This document shows positions 4,403 to 47,692 of a DNA stretch of 64,000 bases, piece after piece. The stretch is from Candidatus Nomurabacteria bacterium (GTDB lineage Bacteria > Patescibacteriota > Minisyncoccia > Phycocordibacterales > UBA5272). The notes beneath the pieces are model-generated. The model saw only the letters and a list, made by a program, of their open reading frames with translations, was not told the DNA's origin and searched no databases. The first letter of the stretch is position 1; each line of letters begins with the position of its first letter. Position numbers and translations under genes: made by a program. The stretch covers positions 408,942 to 472,941 of the forward strand of contig JAQBRF010000004.1 in assembly GCA_028286645.1 (NCBI GenBank). The letters run 5' to 3'.

Positions 4403-4442
4403 TTAGTCATTATACCACGCAAAAGCATTGCAAACTAAGGAG

Positions 4443-8005: not shown

Positions 8006-8653
8006 CTAGTTAGTTAAATCGTAGATACAGGCTGTTGTTCCTGTTACGGCTGACGTACAAGCTGTAGTGCTCGTATCAATTCCACCTCCGAAATCTCCCG
8101 TGGCCCCAGTAGAAACAGGCTGTCCCGCTTCGTTAGCAAAATAATTCGTATGGCTTACGGTACATGCTGTTATACATGTATAAGGAATTGAACCTGTTGT
8201 TTGATCTACACAAGGCTTTGCAGTTCCGGTGAGCGCCGTAGTTACGCCTCCGCAGTCTGCGTCATCATTTAAACCCTGGTTTGATGACTCCAGCTTAACA
8301 CCTAAGTGATACCCGATTCGTCGATTGTTTGCACCTGGGTCTGTATAAACCGCATACATATACTTATCTCTAGCAGCAACAGTTGACGAAGCATTTGTAG
8401 GAAGAGCTTGTAGATATCTTGGGGCGAGACTAGAAAGATCAGGCGGGTAATCTCCGCCATTGTCTTCTGCATAAAGCTGTAAAGCGGTCGAAATAGCGCG
8501 AAGGTCTGCAACCTTCTTTGCATCTCTTCCTTTTCTTCTAGATTCTGTGATCGGTGCTGCTATAACCGTTGAAAGAAGGCCGATAATTGCGATCACCACC
8601 AGGAGTTCGATGAGGGTGAATCCTTTGAAACTTTTTTTTAATATTTTTGACAT
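8006..8653 (-). CDS. pilA: type IV major pilin (paralog 1)
   Basis: KGFTLIELLVVIAIIGLLS N-methylation motif. 215 aa. C-terminal Cys pair. Confidence 0.8.
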   Translation of the reverse strand: MSKILKKSFKGFTLIELLVVIAIIGLLSTVIAAPITESRRKGRDAKKVADLRAISTALQLYAEDNGGDYPPDLSSLAPRYLQALPTNASSTVAARDKYMYAVYTDPGANNRRIGYHLGVKLESSNQGLNDDADCGGVTTALTGTAKPCVDQTTGSIPYTCITACTVSHTNYFANEAGQPVSTGATGDFGGGIDTSTTACTSAVTGTTACIYDLTN

Positions 8654-8750: not shown

Positions 8751-9404
8751 CTAATTAGTTAAATCATATATACATGCCGCAGGAGTGCTTACAAGAACAG
8801 ATGTACAAGCCGTTGTGCCTGTATCTTGTCCTCCGCCAAAATCGCTATTTATACTTGAAGCAGGAGGATACCCGGCATCACCAACTACCCATGTTGGGTT
8901 ACTTGCAGTACAGGCGATTATACATGTATAAGGAATAGCTCCTGTAGTCTGGTTGACACAAGGTTTTGAACTTCCCCCCATAGCAAAATCGAAAGCCCCT
9001 CCACAGTCCGCATCATCGTTTAGCGCCTGATTCGCAGATTCTAATTTTACTCCTAAATGATAACCAATACGTCTATTATTTGCCCCAGGGTCAGCAAAGA
9101 CTGTATACATATATTTATCTCTAGCACTTGCTGAAGACCAAGCATTAGCAGGCAAAGATTGTAGATACCTAGGAACAAGAGATGAAATATCGGGCGGATA
9201 TTCTCCCGCATTATCATCGGCATACAATTGTATGGCTGTAGAGATTGAGCGTAGATCGGCGATTTTCTTTGCATCTCTTCCTTTTCTTCTAGACTCTGTA
9301 ATAGGAGCCGCTATAACAGTTGAAAGAAGTCCGATAATTGCGATCACCACCAGGAGTTCGATGAGGGTGAATCCTTTGAAACTTTTTTTGGAAATTTTAA
9401 ACAT
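8751..9404 (-). CDS. pilA: type IV major pilin (paralog 2)
   Basis: First ~125 aa nearly identical to 8006..8653. C-terminal ~90 aa divergent. 217 aa. Confidence 0.8.
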   Translation of the reverse strand: MFKISKKSFKGFTLIELLVVIAIIGLLSTVIAAPITESRRKGRDAKKIADLRSISTAIQLYADDNAGEYPPDISSLVPRYLQSLPANAWSSASARDKYMYTVFADPGANNRRIGYHLGVKLESANQALNDDADCGGAFDFAMGGSSKPCVNQTTGAIPYTCIIACTASNPTWVVGDAGYPPASSINSDFGGGQDTGTTACTSVLVSTPAACIYDLTN

Positions 9405-9442: not shown

Positions 9443-10660
9443 TTAGCTTATAGCTGACGATAACGAATACATAGGCAACAAAACAGCAGACACTAATACT
9501 CCAACTCCTAGACCTAAAGAAACTATCATGGCGGGCTCAATTAGACCTATAACTCTATCAATAGAAGTATCGAGCTCGCGCTTATAAAATATAGCTAAGT
9601 TATTTAAAATATAAGCCAATTCTCCTGTTTCTTCTCCAATATGCACCATCTGTACTAAAATATTTGGAGCAAGAGGCTCTTCATAAAGAGCCTTAGAAAA
9701 GGCAACACCAGTCTGGACTTTTTGAGAAACTCTTTTTAAGAGATCTTTATATATAACATTCTCTACTACCGCCGAAGTAATATCAATTGATCTAACGATA
9801 GGCACCCCGCTTGTTAGCATCGTATTCATGTTATCCGCAAGCCGTGTTAAGAAAATACGCTGATACAAAGTCTTGATAACCGGAATTCTGGTTTTAATTT
9901 CGTCTATTTTCCTAGTTCCTCTTTCTGTTTTTGACCATTTATAAAATATCCATATCGCAATAACTATTATTGGAAATGATATAGCCCAGTATTTTACAAA
10001 TACATCTGAAATCCCTAATATTATTTTAGTAACCAGTGGGAGATCTGCCCCTTGATCGGCAAATAGGGCCGCCATTTTAGGAATAACAAAAGTAAGCATG
10101 CCCACCATAATTACCACGAAAGTTCCGATAACGAAGCTTGGATAAGTGAGAGCTTTTTTTATTTTCTGAGTAAGCTCATAATCTCTATCGAGATAATCTG
10201 CTAAATATAAAAATCTTTCATTTAATTTTCCGCTCTCTTCTCCGGCTTTTACCATGTTTATATAAAATGGCGAGAATATTCCAGGTCGACGCGAAAGAGA
10301 TTCAGACAATGAAACACCAGCTTCTATATCATCTGCCACACTGGTTAACTCTTTTTGAAGCGCGATATTTTCATTTTCCTGGGCGAGCAATCTAAAACCC
10401 TTAAGCGCTGGAACCCCTGCTTGAAAAAGCGTAGCAATCTGGCGAGAAAATATAACTAAATCCTTTGGCTTAACTTTTGGCTTTAAAAAATGGAAGTTTG
10501 TTATAGCATCTAATCCCTTGCTTTCTTTTTTCTCTACAATATTTACAATGGCTAAACCTCTTTTTTGTAGTAGTGCAATAGCCTGGTCTAATGAGCCGCT
10601 TTCAACATCGGCTTCGATCTTAACCCCATCGTTTCCAATTGATGTATAGTGAAAAAGCAT
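9443..10660 (-). CDS. pilC: type IV pilus inner-membrane platform protein (GspF/PilC family)
   Basis: 405 aa, duplicated T2SSF domain, three TM segments, typical PilC spacing. Confidence 0.85.
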   Translation of the reverse strand: MLFHYTSIGNDGVKIEADVESGSLDQAIALLQKRGLAIVNIVEKKESKGLDAITNFHFLKPKVKPKDLVIFSRQIATLFQAGVPALKGFRLLAQENENIALQKELTSVADDIEAGVSLSESLSRRPGIFSPFYINMVKAGEESGKLNERFLYLADYLDRDYELTQKIKKALTYPSFVIGTFVVIMVGMLTFVIPKMAALFADQGADLPLVTKIILGISDVFVKYWAISFPIIVIAIWIFYKWSKTERGTRKIDEIKTRIPVIKTLYQRIFLTRLADNMNTMLTSGVPIVRSIDITSAVVENVIYKDLLKRVSQKVQTGVAFSKALYEEPLAPNILVQMVHIGEETGELAYILNNLAIFYKRELDTSIDRVIGLIEPAMIVSLGLGVGVLVSAVLLPMYSLSSAIS

Positions 10661-11718
10661 TATAGTAATCGATCAAATAATGATGGCCGTCTGATATGGC
10701 CTTGTACATCATCCTTATTAACTTCTCCCTTTCTTATTAGTTCAGCCAAATTTCGATCAAGATCAATCATGCCATCCTTTGAGCCAGTCTCTATAAGAAC
10801 ATCAATTTCATGCGTTCTCTTTTCTCTAATAAGATTTGATACGGCAGAAGTGTTTAATAAAAGCTCAAACACTGGGATAAGACCACCAGAAATTCTAGGA
10901 ATTAATCTTTGAGAAAGCACTCCAATGAGTGATGAAGCCAGCTGTAATCTGATTTGTGACTGCTGTTCTGCCGGGAAAATATCAATAATTCTATCTATTG
11001 TTTGCGCGGCTGAGTTTGTGTGGAGGGTAGATAAAACCAGATGCCCCGTTTCTGCCGCAGTAACTGCTGCAGAAATAGTTTCCAAATCACGCATTTCACC
11101 GATCATGATAACATCCGCATCTTGTCTAAATACATGACCAAGAGCGGTATGGAAATCTTTTGTATCCACTCCGACCTCTCTTTGTTCAATTAGAGCTTTA
11201 TTTGGATCAAATCTAAACTCAATCGGATCTTCGATGGTGATGATATGCCTTTTCGCTTCTGAGTTAATCAAGTCCACCATGGAAGCAATTGTAGTAGACT
11301 TTCCTTGTCCCACGGGACCTACTACCAAGAAAAATCCCTGGCGCTCTCTGGCGATTTGAATTAATTGTTCAGGAAGATTAAGCTCAGCTATTGTTTTAAC
11401 TTTTGGAATAAGTCTTAGAGCAACAGAAATAAACCCTCTTTGAAATGATGCGTTTCCTCTTAATCGATATTCTTTCTTATGTTCATATGAGAAATCAAGT
11501 TCCTGATTTACCACGAAATCAGTAAGAGCTTTTTCTCCCACCATAATGCGTAAAAATCCTAAAGTATCTTCCGCGCTTAATTCTTTTTTTCGAGTTAAAG
11601 GAATGAGTTCGCGATTTACTCGAACAGTCGGGAAAGTACCAACAGTAAAATGAATATCAGACCCAGCTTCTTTAACCAGAGTCATTATTAAATCATCGAG
11701 CTCGTTTTCGTAATTCAT
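10660..11718 (-). CDS. pilT: twitching-motility/retraction ATPase (PilT family)
   Basis: 352 aa. Walker A GPVGQGKSTT, Asp box, His box. Size typical of PilT/PilU, not PilB. Preceded by the heptad leader motif. Confidence 0.85.
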   Translation of the reverse strand: MNYENELDDLIMTLVKEAGSDIHFTVGTFPTVRVNRELIPLTRKKELSAEDTLGFLRIMVGEKALTDFVVNQELDFSYEHKKEYRLRGNASFQRGFISVALRLIPKVKTIAELNLPEQLIQIARERQGFFLVVGPVGQGKSTTIASMVDLINSEAKRHIITIEDPIEFRFDPNKALIEQREVGVDTKDFHTALGHVFRQDADVIMIGEMRDLETISAAVTAAETGHLVLSTLHTNSAAQTIDRIIDIFPAEQQSQIRLQLASSLIGVLSQRLIPRISGGLIPVFELLLNTSAVSNLIREKRTHEIDVLIETGSKDGMIDLDRNLAELIRKGEVNKDDVQGHIRRPSLFDRLL

Positions 11719-11937
11719 AGGGATAGATAGTAGACGTTAGACATTAGATGTTAGAAAATACAAATTCTATGCATGATGCTAGTATAAACCGGAAATGTGT
11801 AAAGACAATTGAATAAGTCACAGAAACGAGATGCTAAGGACTAGGCGTTAGGTTTTAGGTGTTAAAATACTAAAGTTACAAATGCAATATATAAATACTT
11901 AGAATTTTCCGTTTCAATAAATTTAATAACTAAACAA

Positions 11938-11975
11938 AAACCCCGTTTCATCACCGGGGGGTGACGAAACGGGTT
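11938..11975 (-). terminator. rho-independent terminator of the GC-rich gene
   Basis: 16-bp perfect stem AACCCGTTTCGTCACC/GGTGATGAAACGGGGTT followed by a T-run on the minus strand. Confidence 0.6.
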
Positions 11976-11980
11976 GTAAA

Positions 11981-12514
11981 TCACCCGGGAGCAGAACACT
12001 CCGGGAATTTCGAGAAGATCTCCTTCTGAAGACCTGTGAGGTAAACGACACGAAACCAGAAAGGAGGAAAAATGCCGTGGCAGTTATGTTTTATGGCCTC
12101 CACGTTAGCTGACCATTCGTCGACCCTGCGGCTCTTTCTCATAAGTTCGGCGACTTCTTCCTCGCTCATGCCGTAGCGCTCGTGTTCTTCCTTTGCGCAC
12201 GCCTCCTGGAGGAGCCGATACCCTTCACGGATGAAAAGCTCCATGTGATTATGGTAGACACTTCCAGGACGAACGTCCCGAGGTTGGCCTTCGAGGTATT
12301 GCGCAGTACTCGGTGACCCTTCGCAGCTCTTTTCCCCCTCAATGTCATACCACGGCAGAAGATGCCGGGCTGACGCAGTAAAGCAGGTGGCATTGCCGGC
12401 ATAGAGCCCGACGTACGCAGCGTTGTTGCGATCCGGGACCGGAGTACGGCATTTGTCGCAGAGCGGCTTTCCTTTGTCGTTGTATTCGGTAATTACTGTA
12501 AAGACAAGCATGAC
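11981..12514 (-). CDS. hypothetical protein on a GC-rich islet (likely horizontally acquired)
   Basis: ORF with GGAGA RBS before the internal Met (MLVFTVITEY...). GC clearly above flanks. Own strong terminator. No recognisable domain. Confidence 0.5.
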   Translation of the reverse strand, partial: VMLVFTVITEYNDKGKPLCDKCRTPVPDRNNAAYVGLYAGNATCFTASARHLLPWYDIEGEKSCEGSPSTAQYLEGQPRDVRPGSVYHNHMELFIREGYRLLQEACAKEEHERYGMSEEEVAELMRKSRRVDEWSANVEAIKHNCHGIFPPFWFRVVYLTGLQKEIFSKFPECSAPG

Positions 12515-12828
12515 GGTCTCCTTCAAATTTAGTGTGCGTTTCCGCACCCTAAAGAAGAAAATCACCATTTAAGACTGGGTGCGGTTCTGATTGATCCAAG
12601 AAAGTTGTTAGCTGTGCTTCATGATTCCCCCCACATAAAAATGAGCAGATAAATACAGTATAACATATTTGCCCGATATTGTCAATATTGAAAATCCCCT
12701 ATTTATTATGGCCATATTTCGGAATTGGTTAGAAAATAAGATGAGTACAATGCAAAGGAATTTTTTGAGACTAAAACGTACATACGTTGCGTGAGCAAAA
12801 GATTCTCTTAACGGAATAATCGCTTATA

Positions 12829-12944
12829 TTAAAGACTTAAATTTGCTACAGATACGCGAAGCCTAGGAATCTTTTTGAAGAAGTGTACAAAGAAGTACAT
12901 TGATGAAAAAAATTCTGTAGCGACAAAGTAGATGGAGTAAATTT
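12829..12944. mobile_element. MITE-like element: ~116 bp bounded by 15-22 bp terminal inverted repeats (copy 1)
   Basis: ATTAAAGACTTAAATTTGCTACAG ... CTGTAGC ... AAATTTAAGTCTTTAA. Internal TGTAC-N6-GTACA palindrome. Core ~70% identical to 47626..47680. Confidence 0.4.
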
Positions 12945-12950
12945 AAGTCT

Positions 12951-14699
12951 TTAAAGTTCGTTAATTTCGACAAAGGGAATCAGGCCGTTTATAGACTTGA
13001 TAATCGCATCCTCCTTCATGGTCATCATTCCATTCGCACGTGCTAGATGCCAGATTTCTTCCTCTCCCTTGCTGTGAAGCACAGCATCCTGAATAGGAGG
13101 AGTAAATGTCAGCACTTCAAATACAGGCACTCTTCCTTTCATTCCTGTTGGAAACTTTTCAGATGTTTTTACTTCATTTAACGGTTTATCAAGCGGAAGC
13201 TTGGATTTAAATTGCTCCGGCAGATCTTTAAACTGCTCTGCAATCATTTCTTTCATTCCATCATTTATTTCCATCGGCTTTGCACAACCTTCTGCGATGC
13301 CTCTCGAAAGTCTCTGCCCAATAGTTGCGATAATCGTTGGAGCTATCAAGTATGGCTCAATACCCATGTCTAACAGTCTTGTAATCACCCCTACGGCAGT
13401 GTTGGTGTGAATAGTAGAAAACACCAAGTGTCCCGTAAGCGCGGCTTGTATGGCCAGCTGCGCGGTTTCTGCGTCGCGTATTTCTCCTACCATGATTACA
13501 TCGGGGTCCTGGCGAAGAATAGATCGGAGACCAGAAGCAAATGTATATCCAATTTCTGGAAATATTTGCGATTGGTTCATGCTTGGAACGTTGTATTCTA
13601 TCGGATCTTCAAGAGAAACCACATTTCGGTGTTCTCGGTCAATCTCATTTAACATGGCATAAAGAGTGGTGGTTTTACCAGATCCAGTAGGTCCGCAGAT
13701 TAGTATTATTCCATAAGGCCTTGCTAGAGCATTTCGAATTTCTTTCATTTGTCCATCAGAGAAACCAAGAGTATCAACTGGACGCACTCCTTTATAGCTG
13801 TCCAATATACGTATCACCACCTTTTCCCCATAATATCCAGGGAATGTAGACACACGGTAGTCAATAGTGTGGTCTCCGAACTTTGTACTGAATCTTCCAT
13901 CTTGAGGCTTTCTCTTTTCGTCGAGCTTCATTCCGCAAAGAATCTTTACGCGCGCGAGCAGCATGGGATGCATTTTAACGGGAAGAGTGGTTATAGTTTC
14001 TAGCTGCCCATCAAGTCTGACTCTGGCCCGCACCCCTGTTCCGATATGTTCAATATGAATATCAGATGCTCCGTTATCAATAGCATAACGTAAAATAATA
14101 CTAAATATTTCCGGAATAGAAAGCTTAGCAAGATCGCTATCCAGCCCTGCACTTGTTACCGCCGTTAAATCAATATCTTCTCCAGTAGTCTCTTTCCCTT
14201 TTTCTCCATCGTCTTTAGATATATACGAAAGTACTTCATCTCCCACCTTATCTGTAAGACTGGTCTTTTCAAGTGGGGCGTCAGAGTTTATTCCAAAGTG
14301 CTTTTTATATGCGTCATATGTAATTAAAAATACTTTGTATGCAATATGATCCTTGCCGAAAAGGAATTGAAGACTGTCTAGAACATTTGCATGCTCTGGA
14401 TCTACCACTCCTACAGTTACCACTCCATCTTTTTCAGATAAAGGAACAGAGAGCAACTGCTTAGATTGTTGAACGCTTATATATTTTGTTAATTCTTTGT
14501 CATCTGATATATCACCTTTAAATATAGGCAGCCCGTAAAGAATGCTTCTTACCTCCGTGATTTCCTCTGTTGTAATGTTTTTCTTAACTAAAATAGAATC
14601 AACCAAGATATCATCGCGCACTGAAATATCAGACTCAATGTCTTTAGCTTCAAGCTCGGTTAATTTATTTTGACTAACGAAGAGGTCTAGAAGAAGCAT
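12951..14699 (-). CDS. pilB: type IV pilus assembly ATPase (GspE/PilB family)
   Basis: 582 aa. N-terminal T2SSE_N domain, Walker A GPTGSGKTTT, tetracysteine-less CPR-style C-terminus. Confidence 0.9.
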   Translation of the reverse strand: MLLLDLFVSQNKLTELEAKDIESDISVRDDILVDSILVKKNITTEEITEVRSILYGLPIFKGDISDDKELTKYISVQQSKQLLSVPLSEKDGVVTVGVVDPEHANVLDSLQFLFGKDHIAYKVFLITYDAYKKHFGINSDAPLEKTSLTDKVGDEVLSYISKDDGEKGKETTGEDIDLTAVTSAGLDSDLAKLSIPEIFSIILRYAIDNGASDIHIEHIGTGVRARVRLDGQLETITTLPVKMHPMLLARVKILCGMKLDEKRKPQDGRFSTKFGDHTIDYRVSTFPGYYGEKVVIRILDSYKGVRPVDTLGFSDGQMKEIRNALARPYGIILICGPTGSGKTTTLYAMLNEIDREHRNVVSLEDPIEYNVPSMNQSQIFPEIGYTFASGLRSILRQDPDVIMVGEIRDAETAQLAIQAALTGHLVFSTIHTNTAVGVITRLLDMGIEPYLIAPTIIATIGQRLSRGIAEGCAKPMEINDGMKEMIAEQFKDLPEQFKSKLPLDKPLNEVKTSEKFPTGMKGRVPVFEVLTFTPPIQDAVLHSKGEEEIWHLARANGMMTMKEDAIIKSINGLIPFVEINEL

Positions 14700-15013: not shown

Positions 15014-15562
15014 TTATTTCAAATAGTAAGTGCTTAACTTAACTTGATAGTTTGTAGAAGTTCCGGGCTCCGTAGACACACTAAATGAGGTCGATTCAAT
15101 ATTATACAGCCTCATACTCTTTTCATAACTATCTAGCAGCTGCTTAAACTTAGTATAGGTGGTTTTTGTTGAAAAACTAACTGTATATGATCCTCGACCT
15201 CCTACTGCCGGGTTCTCTGAGTATGATAAATCTGAGATTGGAACACCTGTCGTGTTTGCGATATTATCTACTTCACTTAAGAGTCTAACTGGATCAATCT
15301 TAGCAGGAACCATCGTTTCTATTTTCTTCTTTGTGTCAGCATCAATGTTATTGTATTGTTTCTTCAAAGTTTCTGCTTCATTATAAAGCTCATTTACTTG
15401 CGCCACAGTTTTCGTATACTCCTCATTCGAAGTCTTAAGGGCGGTAATTGATTGTTCTGGCTGCCAAACAGTTCCCCCGCCTGAATATAATGGACTTATA
15501 ACCACGTAATAAAGAGCGAATGATCCTACTATGAGCAAAGTGTTTAATAATCTGGGTGACAT
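15014..15562 (-). CDS. PilO-like pilus assembly membrane protein
   Basis: 182 aa, N-terminal TM then coiled-coil. Position between PilN-like and pilB. Confidence 0.45.
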   Translation of the reverse strand: MSPRLLNTLLIVGSFALYYVVISPLYSGGGTVWQPEQSITALKTSNEEYTKTVAQVNELYNEAETLKKQYNNIDADTKKKIETMVPAKIDPVRLLSEVDNIANTTGVPISDLSYSENPAVGGRGSYTVSFSTKTTYTKFKQLLDSYEKSMRLYNIESTSFSVSTEPGTSTNYQVKLSTYYLK

Positions 15563-16338: not shown

Positions 16339-17412
16339 TTAGATTTGAGGAACTAACTTCTTTAGAGCACACCCGACTGCAAGAGAGTATGTCGGACCCA
16401 CTCTTTCTATCATCTCGTGTAAAAACGCGGGCACTTCTATTTGATCAAATGGAGATGCGAGCCTGCCCGCGATATGAACAGTAGAATTATATGCATCCAT
16501 TAATCCTTTTGTACGCGCTCCTCCGCCGGATAAAATTATTCCTTCAATGTTCTGATTATACTTTCTTTCATACATAAGAGATAGTCTTGCGATCTCTCCA
16601 AAAAGTGGATAACTACTTAATTCCATAATTTCTTTTATATATGGATTTGATTTATCGCCAACATATCCGAATTCCCTCTTCGTGCTTTCTGCTGTATCGA
16701 TTGGGATGGATAATGCTTTAGAAAGTTGTATAGTCGCATCTTGAGATCCCTTGCTTATAACATGCATGTCTAAAACAGTATTTTCATGAGTCAATGAAAG
16801 GGTGGTGTACTGAGAACCAATATCAGCATATAAAATCATTCCGCGGTTTTGTGTTGGCGCGCTGCGCAAAAGACTATAACCATGAACTTCATATTCTACA
16901 TTTGTAAGCTCAAGCTTATGCACAATTCTGTCATACATAGCCAGTGTCTCATTATTCACCGCCGCCAATACGATATTTATCATTCTTTCGTCTTTGCCGA
17001 TGTTTAACATGCTTGGGATATGCCACCAATCCATTTGCACCTCAGTTAAAGGTACGGGAATATATTTTCTGGCCTCAAGAGGTATCATGGTTCTAAGCTC
17101 CCTGTCATCTACTTTTGGGACTTTTACAAGAGCCACATATCCGGCAGACGGGTCTATCGCCACTACCGTATCCCTTGCTGTTATTTTGGCTTCTTTAAAT
17201 AAATCGCCTATTGCCTCGATGGTCTTTTCTTCTCCTAGATGAACCGCTTGACCTGACTCTTTCCCAGCATATGGGCCAAGCTCAATCTCTCCATATGTAT
17301 CTAAAATTATTTTCTCTTTTTCACGCCGAAGCTGAACAACTTTTATCGAAGAAGTTCCAATGTCTAGACCAATAGCCTGACCAATTTCCTCTTTCTTAAA
17401 GAAATGAAACAT
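16339..17412 (-). CDS. pilM: type IV pilus assembly ATPase-fold protein PilM (actin-like)
   Basis: 357 aa. IGLDIGTSSIKVVQL N-terminal phosphate-1 motif of the actin/HSP70 fold typical of PilM/FtsA. Confidence 0.7.
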   Translation of the reverse strand: MFHFFKKEEIGQAIGLDIGTSSIKVVQLRREKEKIILDTYGEIELGPYAGKESGQAVHLGEEKTIEAIGDLFKEAKITARDTVVAIDPSAGYVALVKVPKVDDRELRTMIPLEARKYIPVPLTEVQMDWWHIPSMLNIGKDERMINIVLAAVNNETLAMYDRIVHKLELTNVEYEVHGYSLLRSAPTQNRGMILYADIGSQYTTLSLTHENTVLDMHVISKGSQDATIQLSKALSIPIDTAESTKREFGYVGDKSNPYIKEIMELSSYPLFGEIARLSLMYERKYNQNIEGIILSGGGARTKGLMDAYNSTVHIAGRLASPFDQIEVPAFLHEMIERVGPTYSLAVGCALKKLVPQI

Positions 17413-19156: not shown

Positions 19157-19203
19157 ATAGCTATATAGCAGGCATTAGATTTTAGACGTTAGATAATACA
19201 TTT

Positions 19204-20662: not shown

Positions 20663-21304
20663 TTATTTAATTGTTTGGACCATTTGATCTACAATCTTTC
20701 CTATATCAAATGTTGCTCGCTCATTTTCACATGTTGTTTTGTTTGGCTCATCATAATTTCCACACTGGATAAATCGCAAGCTAAATGTAAAGGTTAGCGC
20801 TACTTCTTTAGGATTATATGGAAATGTATACGCATACATTGTATACATACTTCCGGCGGCTCCTTCTGATCTTTTCGTCACACAATATGTGTGCCCATTA
20901 ATTAGTTGTACTTTAGTGATTCCACCCGAGGCAGTTTCAGACCCGGCCTCTGTACAATCAAAGACTTCGTCCGTGGCTTGAAGTATGGGTGGCCAATCAG
21001 TTTGAATTATATATGGTGTTGAAATGCTTTTCGGATATTTAAATGTTAAAGACAGCTCATCACTTGAACTGCTGGTTCCCCAGCTGCTGGTATCAAGTTG
21101 CGGACACTCTGCAAATTCACACATTGGGCCGCCTCTTCCTACACTAGATCCATCCGGACAAATCTTGGCTTCCGTAGTACATGCCGTTGGTTCATTGTCA
21201 TTGCTCTTAGAGACATACTGAGACCATGCCAAACCTCCTACCACTATTATTAATAAGATAACCACAATAGGAACAATGAGGCTTTTATTTTGTTTAGATT
21301 CCAC
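20663..21304 (-). CDS. membrane-anchored Cys-containing secreted protein, paralog B
   Basis: 213 aa. Clear sequence similarity to 19952..20599 over the C-terminal ~130 aa. Confidence 0.5.
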   Translation of the reverse strand: MESKQNKSLIVPIVVILLIIVVGGLAWSQYVSKSNDNEPTACTTEAKICPDGSSVGRGGPMCEFAECPQLDTSSWGTSSSSDELSLTFKYPKSISTPYIIQTDWPPILQATDEVFDCTEAGSETASGGITKVQLINGHTYCVTKRSEGAAGSMYTMYAYTFPYNPKEVALTFTFSLRFIQCGNYDEPNKTTCENERATFDIGKIVDQMVQTIK

Positions 21305-21369
21305 ATACTTAGTTTAACAGTTAAATAAGTAAGTTGTGACGATAACAATAGGAATCAATAAACCAGACA

Positions 21370-21400
21370 AATAAAAAAGTCCTCGCGCACGCGCGAGGGC
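21370..21400 (-). terminator. rho-independent terminator
   Basis: CCTCGCGCACGCGCGAGG hairpin followed by a T-run on the minus strand. Confidence 0.5.
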
Positions 21401-21423
21401 TTGATCATCATGTGAGTGCCAGC

Positions 21424-21633
21424 TCAGATGATGATCTCTTTTGGTTGAGGAACGACTTCGTACACCGGCACCGGCAAGTCCGGGTATGTCTGGTACATCG
21501 TCGGCGACGGAACTGGTACTTGTTGCACAGGTGCCGGTTGCTTGACCTGCGACATCATCATCGCAAACACGCTGATCGCTATGATCGCGAGCGAACACGT
21601 CTTCACCACGTCCGAAAAGTCAGTCCAATTCAT
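21424..21633 (-). CDS. small Pro-rich secreted protein (GC-rich islet)
   Basis: 69 aa, signal-peptide-like N-terminus, AAGGGAGAG RBS 6 nt upstream. Confidence 0.45.
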   Translation of the reverse strand: MNWTDFSDVVKTCSLAIIAISVFAMMMSQVKQPAPVQQVPVPSPTMYQTYPDLPVPVYEVVPQPKEIII

Positions 21634-21671
21634 GTTGCTCTCCCTTCTTGGTTATGAGTGATCGAGAGCAT

Positions 21672-22094
21672 CTAGCCAAGCCAGCCAGCGTAAGTGAGAA
21701 ACGTGGTCTCGCGTTTGTGGAAGTCGTATTGCAATGTTTCGGGGTGATCTCCTGGGCTCGTGATCATGATGATACCAATCGCATCCCGTTTAATCGCGGA
21801 GAACACATGCGTTTGTGTTGCAGGATCTCTGGTCACCACAAGCGTACTCCGATAAATCTCGCGCGTGCGTTTGTAGCTGCCCACATTTTCGATCTCGCTC
21901 ACGGTGACATTGTACGTCCCGGGAGCCTTGAAGTGCACTGTGTAGGCGGCGGCTTTTTCATCCCAGCCGTCTTTCGAAGGCTGCACGATGACCCGGCCTC
22001 CGAACATTGGAATATCCCTGGTCTTGTCTCCGTAGACTTGTGTGAAGTAAAAAGCCCCTACTGCCAGTATAAATAATGCAAAAAGCCATCTCAT
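21672..22094 (-). CDS. secreted hypothetical protein (GC-rich islet)
   Basis: 140 aa, signal peptide MRWLFALFILAVGAF, AAGGAAAGGGA RBS. Confidence 0.5.
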   Translation of the reverse strand: MRWLFALFILAVGAFYFTQVYGDKTRDIPMFGGRVIVQPSKDGWDEKAAAYTVHFKAPGTYNVTVSEIENVGSYKRTREIYRSTLVVTRDPATQTHVFSAIKRDAIGIIMITSPGDHPETLQYDFHKRETTFLTYAGWLG

Positions 22095-22197
22095 ATTCCC
22101 TTTCCTTTTCTTTTAAATTAATCAAAGGCGCAAGCGCCGACAGGTTGTATACAATCAAATATATTAGATCATGTTTGTCAATATAAGAAAATTACAA

Positions 22198-22635
22198 CTA
22201 AACACTTTTCTGAATAATCGAAAATATGTTTTTATTTATAAAATTCTCTGGTATTTCATTTGATTTAAACCATTTCCACTCACCGAATTTCTCCGGCTCC
22301 ATGAGCTTTGCTTCTTGATTTGTAGAACATACAAAAACTTCTACAATATCTCCCTCCTTTGCTCCATCTACCTTTCCAATATATTCTTCAATTTTAAGAT
22401 CTGTGATTCCGGTCTCTTCTTCTGTTTCTCTTTTTAAGCATTCTTCTACAGTTTCTCCTTCATCGCCCCTTCCTCCTGGAGTTGTCCAAAATGATCCTAT
22501 CCATTTGTCTGGTGTGTAGTTGCGCAATCCTAATAATATTTTCCCATCACGAATTATAAGCGCCGAAGTTGCTGTCTCGCGGGTTACTTGTGTTTTTAAA
22601 ATTTGGTCCATGTGAAAAAAGTATATCAGTTTCAT
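22198..22635 (-). CDS. NUDIX hydrolase
   Basis: Nudix box GGRGDEGETVEECLKRETEEETGI. AT-rich native composition. TAG stop. Confidence 0.8.
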   Translation of the reverse strand: MKLIYFFHMDQILKTQVTRETATSALIIRDGKILLGLRNYTPDKWIGSFWTTPGGRGDEGETVEECLKRETEEETGITDLKIEEYIGKVDGAKEGDIVEVFVCSTNQEAKLMEPEKFGEWKWFKSNEIPENFINKNIFSIIQKSV

Positions 22636-22682
22636 TTTACAAAAAGAAAAGCTCCGACCGAAGCCGGAGGTTGTCGTCTGTA

Positions 22683-23375
22683 CTAACGTGGGCGACGGGT
22701 GCGCGTACCGAGGAAGCTGGATGCGATGAGGACATCGACTATTCCGCGGTCAGAACCGCCGAGCGAACTTGCGAAGATCGACGCCATCAATGCATCCACA
22801 CCTCCGCTGCCAGAGGACTGTTTCGAACAGGCTACACCATAGGCGCAGATGAGCTCGACGATGAGGCGCATTTGAGGCCCCTCGAGTTTCACCCCTTCCA
22901 GCGCCAAACCGACAGCGAGCTGCATGTTCTGCATACGCACTTCCGGCTCCGGTGGGTACATGGCGCCCGCAAGCAGCGCCTCGAGTTGGGCGATTTTTTT
23001 GTTGTTGCGTTGTGCGCCGAGAGTCTTCCAGTCCGCCAACTGGAAGGGAGCATCGGAGGGCTGCGGTAAGCTTTGATACCACCCGAGCTCTTCGACACCC
23101 GCGGCGACCATCACGGTGCTGTCGGGCCGAATGTGGTCATGAGGACGGCCGTCTTGATCGATGAAGTAAGGCGCTTCCCACGTGTAGGGGCTGCACACAT
23201 CCTTCGCGAGGTAGATCCTCGAAGCTCTGAAGGAGAGATCGAAGGCTCCGTTTTCATGTTTCTTGAGGACCAACACTTTCGTGTCGGCGCATTCGTCGCA
23301 GCCGAAGCCCGTGATCACATCTCCCGGACGCAGGGTCGAGCTGCTCATGGCTTCGCCAACCTTTTTCGTGTGCAT
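22683..23375 (-). CDS. hypothetical protein (GC-rich islet)
   Basis: 230 aa, AAAGGAA RBS, downstream hairpin+T-run terminator at ~22646-22680. No recognisable domain. Confidence 0.5.
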   Translation of the reverse strand: MHTKKVGEAMSSSTLRPGDVITGFGCDECADTKVLVLKKHENGAFDLSFRASRIYLAKDVCSPYTWEAPYFIDQDGRPHDHIRPDSTVMVAAGVEELGWYQSLPQPSDAPFQLADWKTLGAQRNNKKIAQLEALLAGAMYPPEPEVRMQNMQLAVGLALEGVKLEGPQMRLIVELICAYGVACSKQSSGSGGVDALMASIFASSLGGSDRGIVDVLIASSFLGTRTRRPR

Positions 23376-23529
23376 CGCATTCCTTTCTATAGTGTTTGTG
23401 TTGAAATGAGCGCTTCTACTTATTTAAGTAAACAGTACTTCACCACCCTAACAATAAAATCATAATTTGTCAATGAGAGTATAAAAAGAAAAGCCCGTCT
23501 TGCGACGGGTGTGTTTGAAACGGGGGTGA

Positions 23530-23976
23530 TTACTCCCACCATTTCCAGAATGGGAAGAGAGCGCCGATACCGAAGCTCCCGAAACGAATGCCCCCGCCAC
23601 CGGCCAGGCAACCGAATCCGCCGAGGCAAGCGCCGACCGTTACGAAGAGAAATCCGATGTCGAGGTTCGGCCCGATGTAAAAGGCCACTCTCTTGTACCA
23701 GGCCTTACCTGCCGCTTTCTCGGCGGCCAGAGCAAGCTCCGGAAGTAAAAGGGGGAGAATGCGCATTGCACGGATTGCCTTCGGGATATTCCGGAAAGGA
23801 ACCTGAATCATTCGCCTTTCGTCGAGGATTCCTCCGACACTATCCGCGATGCTCGCCAGAACATCTCCACCTCCCCCGCCGCCATCACCCGTGGAAATAT
23901 CGTCTGAGATACCGCTGCCTTCTCCCAGGATTCCTCCAAGGTCGATCACGATCCCTAATGCCACGCCGAAATGCAT
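23530..23976 (-). CDS. glycine-rich protein with GxxxG-rich hydrophobic C-terminus
   Basis: GGGAGGG RBS before MHFGVALG. poly-Gly stretch. C-terminal FLFVTVGACLGGFGCLAGGGGIRFGSFGIGALFPFWKWWE. Confidence 0.45.
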   Translation of the reverse strand: MHFGVALGIVIDLGGILGEGSGISDDISTGDGGGGGGDVLASIADSVGGILDERRMIQVPFRNIPKAIRAMRILPLLLPELALAAEKAAGKAWYKRVAFYIGPNLDIGFLFVTVGACLGGFGCLAGGGGIRFGSFGIGALFPFWKWWE

Positions 23977-24066
23977 AATGTGCCCTCCCAAAATTCCAAC
24001 TGTTACAGAAGCAACCGAAGTTGACTAGTTATAAACTATAATACCATTAATGTTCTGTCAATTACA

Positions 24067-24113
24067 CCTAAACACTGCTTCTATATTATTCCATCTGGGT
24101 CTAGAACGAATAC
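24067..24113 (-). repeat. degenerate copy C of the VOC-gene 3' end (att-like direct repeat)
   Basis: ~45/48 identical to 25845..25893 with one 1-nt deletion. Similarity extends ~15 bp past the former stop codon. Confidence 0.6.
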
Positions 24114-24157
24114 ATCTAATAGTTTTCTCAAATACAAAAGAAAAACCGCACCTGCTT

Positions 24158-24616
24158 TCAGTGCGGACAAGGAACATCTGTGTTAATCTCCATATCGAAA
24201 TACTCATGGAGCATTTGCGGTTCTACTCTAAATATTTTGTATGGAATGATGGGCGTGGTAGCCACATAGAAAAGTCCATTCCGTACAGGTGCAAAATATT
24301 CGCGCGGAAGAACGTACACATAACCCGTGCGATAGCGCACATTCCTTCCTGTTACGATAACCTTGCGGTTGCGTAACCCCCAATGAAGGTACCCGTGCTT
24401 GCTCCGTATACGGAGTACTGCGTGAAGGATAGCTATCCCGGATGATGTTGTTGCATAGATTGCGTTTAAATTATTCTCCGGAATCCCCGTCGTGCAAATC
24501 GCTTTTCTCGGCTCCACTTTACTAAGTAGCCACGGCGAGCCATGAAATAAAAAATTCTCTCGGTCAATGCGTATCAAAGGATATACGTTCGATATTCTCT
24601 TTTGAATTGCTCTCAT
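24158..24616 (-). CDS. hypothetical protein (cassette A, GC-rich)
   Basis: GGAGAAG RBS before the second Met (MRAIQKRIS...). 152 aa. Confidence 0.45.
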   Translation of the reverse strand: MRAIQKRISNVYPLIRIDRENFLFHGSPWLLSKVEPRKAICTTGIPENNLNAIYATTSSGIAILHAVLRIRSKHGYLHWGLRNRKVIVTGRNVRYRTGYVYVLPREYFAPVRNGLFYVATTPIIPYKIFRVEPQMLHEYFDMEINTDVPCPH

Positions 24617-24679
24617 GATACTTCTCCGCATGTAGTGGTTTCTATCAAACTACAGCACAGATGATACTTAGTCAATCAT

Positions 24680-24728
24680 CCCTAAACACTGCTTCTATAT
24701 TATTTACATTTGGATCTAGGACGAATGC
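24680..24728 (-). repeat. copy B of the VOC-gene 3' end (att-like direct repeat)
   Basis: 47/49 identical to 25845..25893. Encodes AFVLDPNVNNIEAVFRDD*. Confidence 0.65.
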
Positions 24729-24796
24729 AGGAGTAACTTCAATTATAAAAAAAATAGACCACCGAGGTGGTCTATTACTCGGCGCGGAAGAGGTCC

Positions 24797-25237
24797 TTAC
24801 TCTTCGTATACGCGCAGAATCTTGATGAACGGATAGCGTTTGGCGCTGTACGCGTAACCCCGCATGATGTCTCTCATGCCGCGGTACTCTTCATCGTAAC
24901 CGTGGTTGTACGAAATGCGATTTGCCCACCAGTAATACCTGAATCCTTCGGTGCGGACAAACACTTCGTACTCTTCTGGCACAAACTGCACCAGTCTGCA
25001 GTTGAAGGCACGACTTGTCGTGGTTATGCACACTCGTAGCGGGGTGGTGGTGACTTTCGCCACCTTCACCCATGGAGCTGATAAATTCCAGCCCGGCGTG
25101 TCACGCTTCACCTCGCCCGTAAATGCATTTCGCATGATACCTACCTGAGTGGGCTCGCTATGATGCATGAACGGAAAGTAGATGAGCGCGCCGAGGAGAA
25201 GAAGGGCGCCGGCAACGAGGATGTGTAGATGCTTCAC
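24797..25237 (-). CDS. membrane-anchored hypothetical protein (cassette B, paralog 1)
   Basis: GTG start overlapping the upstream stop (GTGA). N-terminal TM. Shared motifs P..VCI......NC.LVQF and YAY.....YPF with 25234..25752. Confidence 0.5.
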   Translation of the reverse strand: MKHLHILVAGALLLLGALIYFPFMHHSEPTQVGIMRNAFTGEVKRDTPGWNLSAPWVKVAKVTTTPLRVCITTTSRAFNCRLVQFVPEEYEVFVRTEGFRYYWWANRISYNHGYDEEYRGMRDIMRGYAYSAKRYPFIKILRVYEE

Positions 25238-25752
25238 TTGGCATCCTCGTTCTTGAGTTCTCGCACGACGGAAAGGAATGGATATATCTTCCCCGTTCCT
25301 TCGTATGCGTAACTCTTGAGGATTTCGGAAAAGTCCGTTGTTCTTTCTTTTCCGCCCTTTCTACTACCTCCGGTTCCCGGCCCTTCGTAGTCCCGCCGGC
25401 CATGCCAGGAAAGGAAGAGATCGAGTCCCTTCGCATTGAACTGCACAAGCTTGCAGTTGAGCACACGCTGATTCGCATTGATGCACACCTGCATCGGCCG
25501 CAAGTCGACCGTATGATACTGCTCGACGATCGGCGTTCGTACGAAGTAGCCGGTCCTCTCGAGTGTCGTGATCTTCCCAGTGCGGGTATTGAACACATAG
25601 CCCTGTTGGTAGGTGTCGACGAACTGGACAAACCATATCCAGGTCACGCCGATGATCACGAGTGCAATGATGGTGAGTCCCGCCAGAAAATACCCCAACT
25701 TTAGCCAGAGCCTGCGCGAATTGAAGCCCTCTTTCATACTTTTCTCAGCCAT
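25234..25752 (-). CDS. membrane-anchored hypothetical protein (cassette B, paralog 2)
   Basis: AGAGGA RBS. 172 aa. N-terminal TM. Weak SPFH/band-7-like pattern (low confidence). Confidence 0.5.
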   Translation of the reverse strand: MAEKSMKEGFNSRRLWLKLGYFLAGLTIIALVIIGVTWIWFVQFVDTYQQGYVFNTRTGKITTLERTGYFVRTPIVEQYHTVDLRPMQVCINANQRVLNCKLVQFNAKGLDLFLSWHGRRDYEGPGTGGSRKGGKERTTDFSEILKSYAYEGTGKIYPFLSVVRELKNEDAK

Positions 25753-25833
25753 TATGAATGTCCTCTTGTGTCGTTAATCGGAACAGCCCACATGCACTGT
25801 CTAGAATTACACTATAATATCTTCCGATGTTCG

Positions 25834-26211: not shown

Positions 26212-26226
26212 AAACAATATATTAAA

Positions 26227-26610: not shown

Positions 26611-26645
26611 TTTCTGTAAAGGTCAGACTTTAAAAAATAAGAAAA

Positions 26646-28604: not shown

Positions 28605-28622
28605 ATGTATATTCTAGCACAT

Positions 28623-29433: not shown

Positions 29434-29448
29434 CTGCGACCACGATCG

Positions 29449-47470: not shown

Positions 47471-47585
47471 GTTAGCACCTCAAATCATTGTTTATCTTGT
47501 TCTAATATATTAAAAGCTGTCTGTCAATTTATAATAAGCGCAATGAATCTTTAGAATGAGATATCTTCCTTTTTTAAATTATTCT

Positions 47586-47692
47586 GAATTCGAGGGCGGG
47601 AGAGGTTTTGAAAGAAACGTACACAGAAGTACATAGAGGAGAAACTTAGACTAGCAACAAAGAAGCCGGATAATTTAAGAAGAGAGAAAACA
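47586..47692. mobile_element. MITE-like element copy 2 (shorter terminal inverted repeats)
   Basis: TTAAAATTAT ... ATAATTTAA termini. Core GTACACAGAAGTACATAGAGGAG...TAGCAACAAAG homologous to copy 1. Confidence 0.35.

What the first reader, a model, noticed from the sequence alone, without database searches (positions are those of the whole stretch)
11938..12944. GC-rich foreign gene plus MITE-like element inserted inside the type IV pilus cluster between pilB and pilT
- The pilus genes run pilM-pilN-pilO-pilB and pilT-pilC-pilA-pilA-pilD-minor pilins on the minus strand.
- A ~1.2-kb insert sits between pilB (stop at 12951) and pilT (start at 11718).
- The insert contains a 177-aa ORF whose GC content is far above the flanks. 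It has its own strong terminator and no recognisable domain.
- The insert also carries a 116-bp element with 15-22 bp terminal inverted repeats ending 7 bp from the pilB stop.
- The pilT promoter region follows.
- This places horizontally acquired DNA in the middle of a conserved surface-appendage locus.
- A second, related inverted-repeat element lies next to another GC-rich gene at 47.5 kb. This suggests the element travels with such genes.
Basis: partly seen in the sequence, partly recalled or inferred. Interest (0 to 1): 0.6.

Follow-up and report, generated by a model that had tools for sequence, protein, structure and literature searches.

The report
Foreign gene and gene-end hairpin
A small GC-rich gene, probably of phage origin, has been dropped between two pilus motor genes of a tiny Nomurabacteria genome; the 'MITE' beside it is instead one copy of a widespread, conserved hairpin that marks gene ends in this bacterial group and is absent from Rfam 15.

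Summary
The window is a Candidatus Nomurabacteria genome. pilB (12951-14699) and pilT (10660-11718) are 1,232 bp apart, against about 140-215 bp in the four closest relatives, none of which has the ORF.

The ORF is 176 aa (ATG at 12511, not 12514). Its GC3 is 0.60 against 0.31 +/- 0.04 for 50 typical genes. It has a near-consensus promoter, an AAGGAG ribosome-binding site and a 14-bp terminator. I read it as a horizontally acquired, moron-like cassette.

It belongs to an uncharacterised family of more than 450 proteins with a CxxC...H...C and GSPSRAQY..GQPRD signature. The gene is a GC spike in all 9 CPR (candidate phyla radiation) loci examined, and matches genome GC in 61%-GC phage contigs.

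The 'MITE' reading fails. The 126-nt element (12829-12954) shares two conserved boxes with at least 60 metagenome contigs, but each copy has different, compensating stems. There is no target-site duplication and no shared terminal repeat. It sits on the stop codon of housekeeping genes, and after a 5S rRNA, in sense orientation (30 of 36). Rfam has no match. It does not travel with GC-rich genes elsewhere.

Its function, probably in RNA 3'-end formation, is inferred.

The parts
12951..14699 (-). pilB (582 aa), the type IV pilus assembly ATPase. It is the last gene of the pilM-pilB unit.
   Evidence: PF00437 T2SSE, E = 3.7e-105, plus an MshEN domain. 81% identical to the L002 orthologue.
12829..12954 (-). 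Intact 126-nt gene-end hairpin, listed 5' to 3' on the minus strand:
- Outer stem P1, 5' arm 12954-12933 (contains the pilB stop codon), 3' arm 12850-12829
- 5' box TCTACTTTGTCGC, 12932-12920
- Stem P2, 12919-12906 paired with 12876-12863
- Apical stem P3, 12900-12895 paired with 12888-12883
- 3' box GCTTCGCGTATC, 12862-12851
   Evidence: Inverted repeat I1. Fold -33.3 kcal/mol, z -6.5. Covariance model R2 scores 109.8 bits, E = 4e-24, against 15 bits on the opposite strand.
12717..12837 (-). Older, degenerate copy of the same hairpin family. It is part of the ancestral pilB-pilT spacer shared with relative L002.
   Evidence: Aligns to L002 9799-9937 at about 80% identity. nhmmer E = 3.6e-29. 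The L002 counterpart is hit by model R1 at 24.7 bits. It folds only weakly here (z -0.65).
12657..12685 (-). Promoter-like site for the foreign ORF: TTGACA, 17 nt, TG-n-TATACT. The -35 hexamer lies in DNA shared with L002 (TTGACT there). The -10 lies at or inside the insertion boundary.
   Evidence: 11 of 12 consensus matches with an extended TG. Homology with L002 ends at about 12682.
11827..12681 (-). Net insertion of about 855 bp relative to L002. It comprises the -10 element, a 145-nt leader, the ribosome-binding site, the ORF, the terminator and about 115 nt of AT-rich filler with CTAA repeats.
   Evidence: Gapped alignment with the L002 spacer. Sequences of the four relatives' spacers.
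11981..12511 (-). GC-rich ORF of 176 aa in two parts. Residues about 12-105 form a CxxC...H...C / GSPSxAQY..GQPRD domain. Residues about 110-170 form a small helical domain that occurs alone or in tandem in other proteins.
   Evidence: Translation. 211 hits in the representative library and 458 by profile search. Invariant C, C, H, C residues. AlphaFold2 mean pLDDT 89.5. GC3 0.60, z +6.9.
11932..11973 (-). Intrinsic terminator of the foreign ORF: a 14-bp stem, a 4-nt loop, then GTTTTTGTTT.
   Evidence: -25.3 kcal/mol, z -4.2.
11781..11826 (-). Conserved pilT promoter region: CTGTGAnTTATnCAATTGTnn, 16 nt, TATACT.
   Evidence: Promoter scan finds TTGTCT-16-TATACT at 11808-11781. The same motif is seen by eye in L002, L003 and L004 upstream of pilT.
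10660..11718 (-). pilT (352 aa), the retraction ATPase. It is the first gene of the pilT-pilC-pilin unit.
   Evidence: PF00437, E = 1.9e-43. 84% identical to the L002 orthologue.
47560..47692 (-). Second, degraded copy of the hairpin family in the window. It lies 90 nt upstream of another GC-rich ORF (46934-47470).
   Evidence: R2 scores 36.9 bits, E = 2e-6, with filters off. Sequence. ORF GC3 0.49, z -3.4 for codon usage.

Best explanation
The enlarged pilB-pilT spacer contains two unrelated additions.

(1) A moron-like single-gene cassette of about 855 bp.
- It consists of a promoter, a 145-nt leader, an AAGGAG site, a 176-aa ORF and a strong intrinsic terminator.
- It was acquired horizontally and landed exactly at the boundary between two transcription units, pilM-pilB and pilT-pilC-pilins. 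Both pilus units therefore keep their own signals, and the new gene is transcribed on its own.
- The gene belongs to an uncharacterised two-domain family carried by GC-rich phages and scattered through CPR genomes, where it is always much GC-richer than its surroundings. The most likely source is a phage or other mobile-element gene pool.
- What the protein does is unknown. Fusions of its N-terminal domain to HTH_3 and OmpR-type DNA-binding domains suggest a regulatory or partner-binding module.

(2) A 126-nt rod-shaped hairpin sitting on the pilB stop codon.
- It is one copy of a widespread Parcubacteria 'gene-end hairpin' family. Two sequence boxes and an AAATT/AATTT helix are conserved, while three stems change by compensatory substitutions.
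- It most likely acts in the transcript, at the 3' end of the pilB mRNA, as a protein-recognised termination, processing or stability signal.
- It is not a MITE and did not bring the gene.

Shown: the insertion, its composition, its anatomy, family membership, the hairpin's conservation and covariation, and its position and orientation.
Inferred: phage origin, independent transcription, and an RNA-level role for the hairpin.
For: Insertion:
- The pilB-pilT gap is about 140-215 bp in L002, L003, L004 and L008 (PilT 78-84% identical), against 1,232 bp here. No ORF homologue occurs in the 80 related loci.
- Window 12837-12682 aligns to the L002 spacer, and the pilT promoter motif is retained at 11826-11781. 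This brackets the insertion.

Foreignness:
- GC3 z +6.9 and codon-usage z -4.5.

Cassette anatomy:
- Promoter 11/12, terminator -25 kcal/mol.

Family:
- 211 and 458 homologues. Named members come only from Saccharimonadia, Parcubacteria and Nomurabacteria.
- The gene is a GC spike in 9 of 9 CPR loci, for example 0.53 against 0.36 between ftsH and recG in L152. In L151 it is 0.655 against 0.45, beside a serine recombinase and a rolling-circle Rep gene.
- Homologues on IMG/VR contigs of GC 0.61 lie 1.6 kb from a large terminase, and there the gene's GC matches the genome.
- Fusions to HTH_3 and Trans_reg_C.

Hairpin:
- The exact two-box pattern occurs in 60 metagenome contigs plus L002.
- 68 covariance-model hits in 390 kb, up to three per 10 kb.
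- 79-85% of cells are paired, against 59% in shuffles. Covariation score 0.46-0.57, against 0.14 shuffled and 0.09-0.24 for slid controls.
- The upstream gene is on the same strand in 30 of 36 cases, and in 16 of 19 tandem gene pairs. The hairpin starts at the stop codon.
- It also follows a 5S rRNA gene.
- G.U pairs exceed A.C pairs 39 to 9 in the inner stems on the sense strand.
- No Rfam match.
Against: - No close donor was found. The best homologue is 45% identical, so origin and timing are inferred from composition and synteny only.
- The consistent GC excess of the family across hosts of GC 0.36-0.57 could reflect selection on composition rather than repeated recent transfer.
- Promoter and terminator are consensus predictions. 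The leader is not significantly structured (z -1.6).
- The hairpin lacks a T-tract (2 of 52 copies), so it is not a canonical intrinsic terminator.
- The inner part of its outer stem carries conserved C.A and A.C mismatches that would be wobble pairs on the opposite strand. The acting strand, and whether it acts as RNA or DNA, are therefore not settled.
- Presence or absence differs between the window and L002 at two sites, so some form of mobility exists.
- The two boxes were part of the search pattern, so their invariance in alignment A3 is partly due to how copies were collected.
Confidence: 0.7

Rival explanations
1. The inverted-repeat element is a MITE-type mobile element that carries or accompanies GC-rich genes, and it delivered this gene into the pilus cluster.
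For: Both copies in the window (12829-12954 and 47560-47692) lie 90-260 nt upstream of a GC-rich ORF. The element is present or absent at two sites when the window is compared with L002.
Against: - Copies share no terminal repeat sequence, show no target-site duplication, and have different stems even within one genome.
- None of 36 copies elsewhere has a GC-rich downstream segment.
- The other copies follow housekeeping genes and a 5S rRNA.
- The cassette junction lies about 150 nt from the intact hairpin. A degenerate hairpin copy exists in L002 without the gene.
- The other GC-rich ORFs at 21-30 kb have no copy nearby.
Confidence: 0.06
2. The hairpin acts at the DNA level. It would be a single-stranded DNA hairpin or cruciform recognised by a recombinase, HUH enzyme or replication factor (comparable to REP/RAYT, attC or IS200-type ends), and it spreads to gene ends by that route. 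On this view its stems stay complementary through hairpin-templated correction, not through selection on an RNA.
For: - Site polymorphism between related genomes.
- A fixed unit size, with an outer stem of about 23 bp.
- Conserved mismatches at fixed positions, reminiscent of extrahelical bases in attC sites.
- No T-tract.
- Orientation could follow replication direction, because most genes are co-oriented with it.
Against: - No recombinase or transposase gene was seen near copies (gene lists).
- No attC R-box consensus and no arrays.
- G.U pairs exceed A.C pairs 39 to 9 in the inner stems on the sense strand.
- Position exactly at stop codons of housekeeping genes and after a 5S rRNA fits a transcript-end role.
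- None found in 2.9 million viral contigs.
Confidence: 0.2
3. The foreign protein is functionally tied to the pilus. It could be a regulator filling the slot that a stand-alone receiver-domain gene occupies between pilB and pilT in other Patescibacteria. Alternatively it could be a phage-derived modulator of PilB or PilT, comparable to Tip or Aqs1 of Pseudomonas phages.
For: - In 10 of 31 more distant loci the pilB-pilT gap holds a PF00072 receiver-only gene. This gene is missing in the window's clade.
- The ORF's N-terminal domain occupies the receiver position in front of Trans_reg_C in P0071 and P0102.
- Homologues are phage-borne.
Against: - In eight other CPR loci the family member is not next to pilB or pilT. 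Neighbours are ftsH/recG, ClpB/L33, SOD and others.
- The closest relatives function without any gene in this slot.
Confidence: 0.1
4. The ORF is ancestral to the clade and was lost from relatives, or the segment is an assembly chimera.
For: Only four close relatives were available, and all are MAG (metagenome-assembled genome) contigs.
Against: - Composition and codon usage are 5-7 sd from the genome.
- More than 30 related loci lack the ORF.
- Both junctions lie inside a spacer that is otherwise collinear with L002.
- The same protein is recorded from NCBI and from an independent Logan assembly.
- The ORF has host-type promoter and ribosome-binding signals.
Confidence: 0.04

Closest known systems
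Phage morons, i.e. independent promoter-gene-terminator units inserted between conserved genes, as defined in lambdoid and HK97-like phages (own knowledge)
   Same: A single ORF with its own promoter-like site and intrinsic terminator. It lies between two genes that are adjacent in relatives. Its base composition departs from that of its neighbours. Homologues are phage-borne.
   Different: It sits in a bacterial chromosome inside a pilus gene cluster, not in a prophage. No phage genes flank it.
ERIC/IRU and REP/BIME elements of enterobacteria, which are imperfect palindromes in transcribed intergenic regions (own knowledge)
   Same: A hairpin of about 126 nt, extragenic, mostly just 3' of genes, with several copies per genome. 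Presence or absence is polymorphic between related genomes.
   Different: Here only two boxes and a short helix are conserved, and the stems differ in every copy through compensatory change. The family spans hosts of GC 0.30-0.67 across at least Nomurabacteria and Kaiserbacteria. No RAYT-like gene was seen.
MITEs such as the Neisseria Correia elements (own knowledge)
   Same: Small, non-coding, with inverted-repeat ends, intergenic and close to gene ends.
   Different: No shared terminal repeat sequence, no target-site duplication and no near-identical copies within a genome.
Chloroplast mRNA 3' inverted repeats, which are processing and stability signals rather than efficient terminators (own knowledge; transcript-end mapping in PMC7145512)
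   Same: A stem-loop at the 3' end of many transcription units, without a U-tract, in a reduced AT-rich genome. A protein-dependent role is plausible.
   Different: Chloroplast 3' inverted repeats are not one sequence family with conserved boxes.
Integron attC sites (own knowledge)
   Same: An imperfect palindrome of 57-141 nt directly after an ORF. Stems vary and unpaired positions are conserved. Orientation is tied to the upstream ORF.
   Different: No RYYYAAC/GTTRRRY core sites, no arrays and no integrase. The upstream genes are core housekeeping genes.

Membership tests
MITE | Terminal inverted repeats whose sequence is shared by the copies of the family | tested here: not met
   The outer arms differ in every one of 52-68 copies. 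Only internal boxes are shared.
MITE | Target-site duplication flanking each copy | tested here: not met
   No direct repeats flank the stem ends in 52 copies. Comparing filled and empty sites between the window and L002 shows none.
MITE | Several near-identical copies within a genome, from recent transposition | tested here: not met
   Copies in the same locus (L122, L131, L147, L119 and others) have different stems. The window has one intact and one degraded copy in 64 kb.
Moron / horizontally acquired single-gene cassette | Lies between genes that are adjacent in related genomes | tested here: met
   pilB and pilT are adjacent in L002, L003, L004 and L008.
Moron / horizontally acquired single-gene cassette | Its own promoter and terminator | tested here: met
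   Sequence prediction only: promoter 11/12 with extended TG, and a 14-bp-stem terminator. No expression data are available.
Moron / horizontally acquired single-gene cassette | Composition differs from the host genome | tested here: met
   GC3 z +6.9, codon-usage z -4.5.
Moron / horizontally acquired single-gene cassette | Resides in a phage or prophage genome | tested here: not met
   Both flanks are pilus genes. Only distant homologues are phage-borne.
Canonical intrinsic terminator (tested on the hairpin) | A G+C-rich stem followed directly by a U-tract | tested here: not met
   Only 2 of 52 copies have 5 or more T in the 8 nt after the stem. The stems are mostly A+T-rich.
Integron attC | R''/R' core sites (RYYYAAC ... 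GTTRRRY), cassette arrays and an integrase | tested here: not met
   No conserved core sites at the stem ends, by inspection of alignment A3. The upstream genes are housekeeping genes.
Any Rfam 15 RNA family | A match to a curated covariance model | tested here: not met
   No match at the element at E <= 10 in the window, or at E <= 1 in eight other loci.
Conserved structured element (RNA or DNA hairpin) | Base pairs maintained by compensatory changes beyond controls | tested here: met
   Covariation score 0.46 (A3) and 0.57 (A4), against 0.14 shuffled and 0.09-0.24 slid. 36-39 of 43 pairs show double changes. A4 is fitted to the model, so it leans towards the structure.
TIGR (tandem interspaced guide RNA) arrays | Tandem units with variable spacers between conserved box C/D motifs, next to a Tas (Nop-domain) gene | tested here: not met
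   Copies are dispersed and single. Here the loops are conserved and the stems vary. No tandem array was found.

The most novel reading that the evidence does not exclude
The 126-nt hairpin is an undescribed, Parcubacteria-wide class of gene-end signal. It would be a protein-recognised RNA (or single-stranded DNA) structure with two invariant boxes. It would replace or supplement canonical terminators after housekeeping genes and rRNA operons, and it would renew itself at gene ends by an unknown copying mechanism that gives each copy its own complementary outer stem. Separately, the GC-rich ORF would represent a 'perpetually foreign' phage gene family that repeatedly colonises CPR genomes.
Probability: 0.35. 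Interest if true: 0.75.

Novelty: new variant of a known kind. Interest (0 to 1): 0.55.

Why it matters
- CPR (Patescibacteria) bacteria have tiny genomes and almost no experimental genetics, so how they end transcripts and how they take up foreign genes are open questions.
- A conserved, covarying hairpin after housekeeping genes and 5S rRNA gives a concrete, testable candidate for a lineage-specific 3'-end signal, and a ready-made covariance model for annotation.
- A single-gene family that is always a GC spike offers a tracer for gene flow from GC-rich phages or hosts into CPR genomes.
- The pilus locus itself appears to be left intact by the insertion, so the effect on the appendage is probably nil.

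Tried and rejected
Searches on the ORF that found nothing:
- Pfam, PHROGs and PADLOC.
- PDB by sequence profile.
- Foldseek against BFVD: nothing at E < 1.
- AFDB50 was not available.
- tblastn against 50,697 phage records: no match.

Readings of the hairpin that were rejected:
- Rfam family.
- TIGR array, after reading PMC12045711.
- attC site and canonical terminator.
- A tRNA-adjacent integration site. tRNA genes are not adjacent.
- A phage-borne element. Zero hits in viral contigs.
- Literature string searches for the two boxes returned only unrelated primer matches. Keyword searches found no description.

Other dead ends:
- The 145-nt leader is not significantly structured.
- I first took the hairpin for a tandem duplicate of the neighbouring ancestral hairpin. 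Pairwise similarity was weak (z 1.7). The better reading is two copies of one family, of different age.
- I looked for repeats at the cassette junctions. There were only vague similarities to the pilT promoter motif, nothing that defines a mechanism.
Full report
**Origin and locus.** The ORF's exact protein is recorded as 'hypothetical protein JWN37_847, Candidatus Nomurabacteria bacterium', on a 514-kb contig.
- PilM_2 (16339-17412) and PilO (15014-15562)
- the T2SSE ATPase pilB (12951-14699)
- the T2SSE ATPase pilT (10660-11718)
- the T2SSF protein pilC (9443-10660)
- two N_methyl pilins, an A24 prepilin peptidase and minor pilins

**Observation.** The pilB-pilT spacer is 1,232 bp.
- It holds an ORF ending at 11981. 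The real ATG is at 12511, preceded by AAGGAG at 12523-12518, which gives 176 aa. Position 12514 is a GTC codon, and NCBI calls a 195-aa product from 12568.
- Against 50 ordinary genes of the window (GC 0.370 +/- 0.032, GC3 0.305 +/- 0.043), the ORF has GC 0.539 (z +5.3) and GC3 0.599 (z +6.9). Its codon-usage log-likelihood is 4.5 sd below the mean.
- A 14-bp-stem terminator with a T-run follows at 11942-11973 (-25.3 kcal/mol, z -4.2).
- A near-consensus promoter, TTGACA-17-TGnTATACT, lies at 12685-12657. The resulting 145-nt leader is not significantly structured (z -1.6).
- The inverted repeat next to pilB is real. Its arms are 27 nt and 85% complementary, and the right arm contains the pilB stop codon.

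**Synteny.** A scan of one genome per species found 80 loci encoding PilT relatives.
- In the four closest (L002, L004, L003, L008; PilT 78-84% identical, and PilB 67-81% in L002, L004 and L008, where it is complete), the pilB-pilT gap is about 140-215 bp.
- No locus contains a homologue of the ORF.
- A gapped alignment shows window 12837-12682 is homologous to the L002 spacer (about 80% identity). This stretch includes the TTGAC of the -35 hexamer.
- The pilT promoter motif (CTGTGAnTTATnCAATTGT...TATACT) is retained at 11826-11781. The net insertion is therefore about 855 bp, between roughly 12681 and 11827.
- The insertion point is the boundary between the pilM-pilB unit and the pilT-led unit, so neither unit is disrupted (inference).
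- In 10 of 31 more distant Patescibacteria loci the same gap holds a stand-alone receiver-domain gene (PF00072) of ordinary composition. The window's clade lacks it.

**The protein.**
- There is no Pfam, PHROG, PADLOC or PDB-sequence match.
- An exhaustive HMMER search found 211 representatives, and a profile search found 458 proteins. Most are about 100 aa and match residues 12-105.
- Nearly invariant residues are C18-x-K-C21, N29, R49-H50, C63-x-G-S-P-S-x-A-Q-Y, G-Q-P-R-D and R81. This suggests a zinc site (inference).
- Residues 110-170 match a separate small domain that occurs alone or in tandem (P0021, P0070, P0107, P0126, P0141).
- Some members fuse the N-terminal domain to HTH_3 or to an OmpR-type Trans_reg_C domain.

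**Where the family lives.**
- The only organism names attached to family members are Saccharimonadaceae, Saccharimonadales, Parcubacteria and Nomurabacteria.
- In every CPR locus examined the gene is a sharp GC spike:

| Locus | Gene GC | Locus GC | Note |
|---|---|---|---|
| window | 0.54 | 0.39 | |
| L152 | 0.53 | 0.36 | between ftsH and recG |
| L151 | 0.655 | 0.45 | beside a serine recombinase and a rolling-circle Rep gene |
| L082 | 0.62 | 0.48 | |
| L083 | 0.555 | 0.48 | |
| L150 | 0.61 | 0.515 | |
| L085 | 0.59 | 0.53 | |
| L153 | 0.655 | 0.55 | |
| L001 | 0.71 | 0.57 | |

- Four IMG/VR contigs of 78-205 kb and GC 0.61 carry homologues whose GC matches the contig. In L086 the gene lies 1.6 kb from a large terminase.
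- The simplest reading is a phage or mobile-element gene that repeatedly enters CPR genomes. A maintained compositional offset cannot be excluded.

**The 'MITE'.** The element (12954 to 12829 on the minus strand) folds into a rod: outer stem P1, an internal region, stem P2, an internal loop, and apical stem P3.
- A similar copy sits in L002 at a different site. Its core is about 85% identical (estimated by eye), but its outer stem is entirely different and still complementary.
- The pattern CTACTTTGTCG-N50-66-GCTTCGCGTAT has exact matches in 60 metagenome contigs, with locus GC from 0.30 to 0.67, and none in 2.9 million viral contigs.
- Covariance models find 40 copies in 1.0 Mb of held loci and 68 in 390 kb of element-bearing loci. 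There are up to three per 10 kb, and pairs only 400-600 nt apart.
- In the window there are just two: 12825-12958 (110 bits, against 15 bits on the other strand) and 47560-47692 (37 bits).
- A degenerate third relative at 12837-12717 is the part of the spacer shared with L002.

**Structure evidence.**
- On the MAFFT alignment of 52 copies, 79.4% of cells pair, against 59.0% after shuffling. There are 495 cells with double changes against 201. The covariation score is 0.460, against 0.143 shuffled and 0.10-0.24 when partners are slid by 1-3 columns.
- On the model-fitted alignment of 68 copies, which leans towards the structure, the values are 85.5%, 725 against 238, and 0.569 against 0.143. 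Pairs inside the 'boxes' also covary there.
- Beyond the two boxes imposed by the search, an AAATT/AATTT helix and fixed mismatch positions are conserved.
- The outer stem is about 23 bp wherever it can be traced. No T-tract follows it (2 of 52), and no target-site duplication flanks it.

**Position of the hairpin.**
- The nearest upstream ORF is on the element's strand in 30 of 36 cases, and in 16 of 19 tandem gene pairs. The stop codon usually lies at or inside the 5' arm.
- The upstream genes are housekeeping genes. TypA, SecY and RecR are named by their sources. I recognised L27, S12, L14, L21, EF-P, TrmD, trigger factor, GyrA, LepA, Pth and NDK by eye from the translations (own knowledge).
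- In L115 and L146 the element directly follows a 5S rRNA gene.
- Hosts include Nomurabacteria (L122) and Kaiserbacteria (L111).
- Copies within one genome have different stems, so recent copy-and-paste is unlikely.
- Even so, the element is present after pilB in the window but not in L002. It is present after the last minor-pilin gene in L002 but not in the window, where a 40-nt spacer separates the orthologous gene from ligA. Turnover therefore occurs.
- In the inner stems G.U pairs outnumber A.C pairs 39 to 9 on the sense strand. The inner part of P1 has conserved C.A and A.C positions. An RNA-level role on the sense strand is favoured but not proven.

**Link between hairpin and GC-rich genes.**
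- Both window copies precede a GC-rich ORF. None of 36 copies elsewhere has a GC-rich downstream segment.
- The other GC-rich ORFs of the window (21-30 kb) have no copy nearby.
- I take the co-occurrence to reflect two things that both sit at operon ends.

**Comparison with known systems.**
- The cassette works like a phage moron but is not in a prophage.
- The hairpin resembles ERIC/REP elements and chloroplast 3' inverted repeats in place and shape, and attC sites in having variable stems with fixed unpaired positions.
- It fails the defining tests for a MITE, a canonical terminator, attC, TIGR arrays and every Rfam 15 family.
- Literature searches found no description. That covers only the open-access library searched.

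**Verdict.** The finding is real and its core interpretation (foreign DNA in the pilus cluster) is supported, but that part is ordinary. The less ordinary results are by-products: a widespread, covarying gene-end hairpin family in Parcubacteria that is absent from Rfam, and a gene family that is a GC spike wherever it occurs in CPR genomes. Function is inferred for both.

Noticed in passing
window 21300-30620: A run of GC-rich ORFs (GC 0.51-0.59, GC3 0.60-0.70, codon-usage z -4.7 to -7.2) with no Pfam or PADLOC match. They are interleaved with very AT-rich genes such as 26646-28139 (GC 0.30, weak mad8 hit). The region looks like a variable island of foreign genes.
   Followed up: partly
window 28926-29000, 30080-30154, 30541-30615: A 75-nt module (a GC-rich hairpin with a T-run, an AT-rich stretch, then GGGGGAAA) is repeated three times between GC-rich ORFs, at 96% and 61% identity to the first copy. 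It looks like a shared terminator-promoter-ribosome-binding-site unit.
   Followed up: no
window 11714-11755 (-) and 48855-48896 (+); also 1-25, 1434-1458, 19161-19186: A 42-nt leader, 98% identical, lies immediately upstream of the start codons of pilT and of a class I aminoacyl-tRNA synthetase gene. It is built of TCTAA-type repeats. L004 and L008 have similar TCTAA repeats upstream of pilT.
   Followed up: no
L005-L007, L009, L015, L019, L021, L026, L027, L034 (pilB-pilT gaps): In more distant Patescibacteria a stand-alone response-regulator receiver gene (PF00072) lies between pilB and pilT. L015 and L021 also have an extra pilin there. The window's clade lacks it.
   Followed up: partly
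L002 16416-16540 versus window 4403-4442: An intact hairpin copy follows the last minor-pilin gene in L002. The orthologous site in the window (64% identical gene, same C-terminus) has only a 40-nt spacer before ligA.
   Followed up: yes
L115 26-265 and L146 13012-13146: The hairpin directly follows a 5S rRNA gene, so it also marks the end of an rRNA operon. These loci have GC 0.58-0.67, and the hairpin's stems there are correspondingly GC-rich.
   Followed up: partly
window 47744-47821 (-): A tiny, highly basic ORF (MAAKKKAAKKSSKKKVAKRKSAKRA) with its own perfect 14-bp terminator at 47690-47725. It lies just upstream of the degraded hairpin copy.
   Followed up: no
window 8006-8653 and 8751-9404: Two tandem pilin genes share a 300-nt stretch at 74% identity, indicating a duplicated major pilin.
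   Followed up: no
L151 2461-4697 and L083 6598-8667: The slot between ClpB/L33 and miaA/ParB/topoisomerase I holds different mobile-looking content in two related CPR genomes. L151 has a serine recombinase plus a rolling-circle Rep gene, and L083 has T4SS_pilin genes. In each case the content lies beside a member of the GC-rich family.
   Followed up: no
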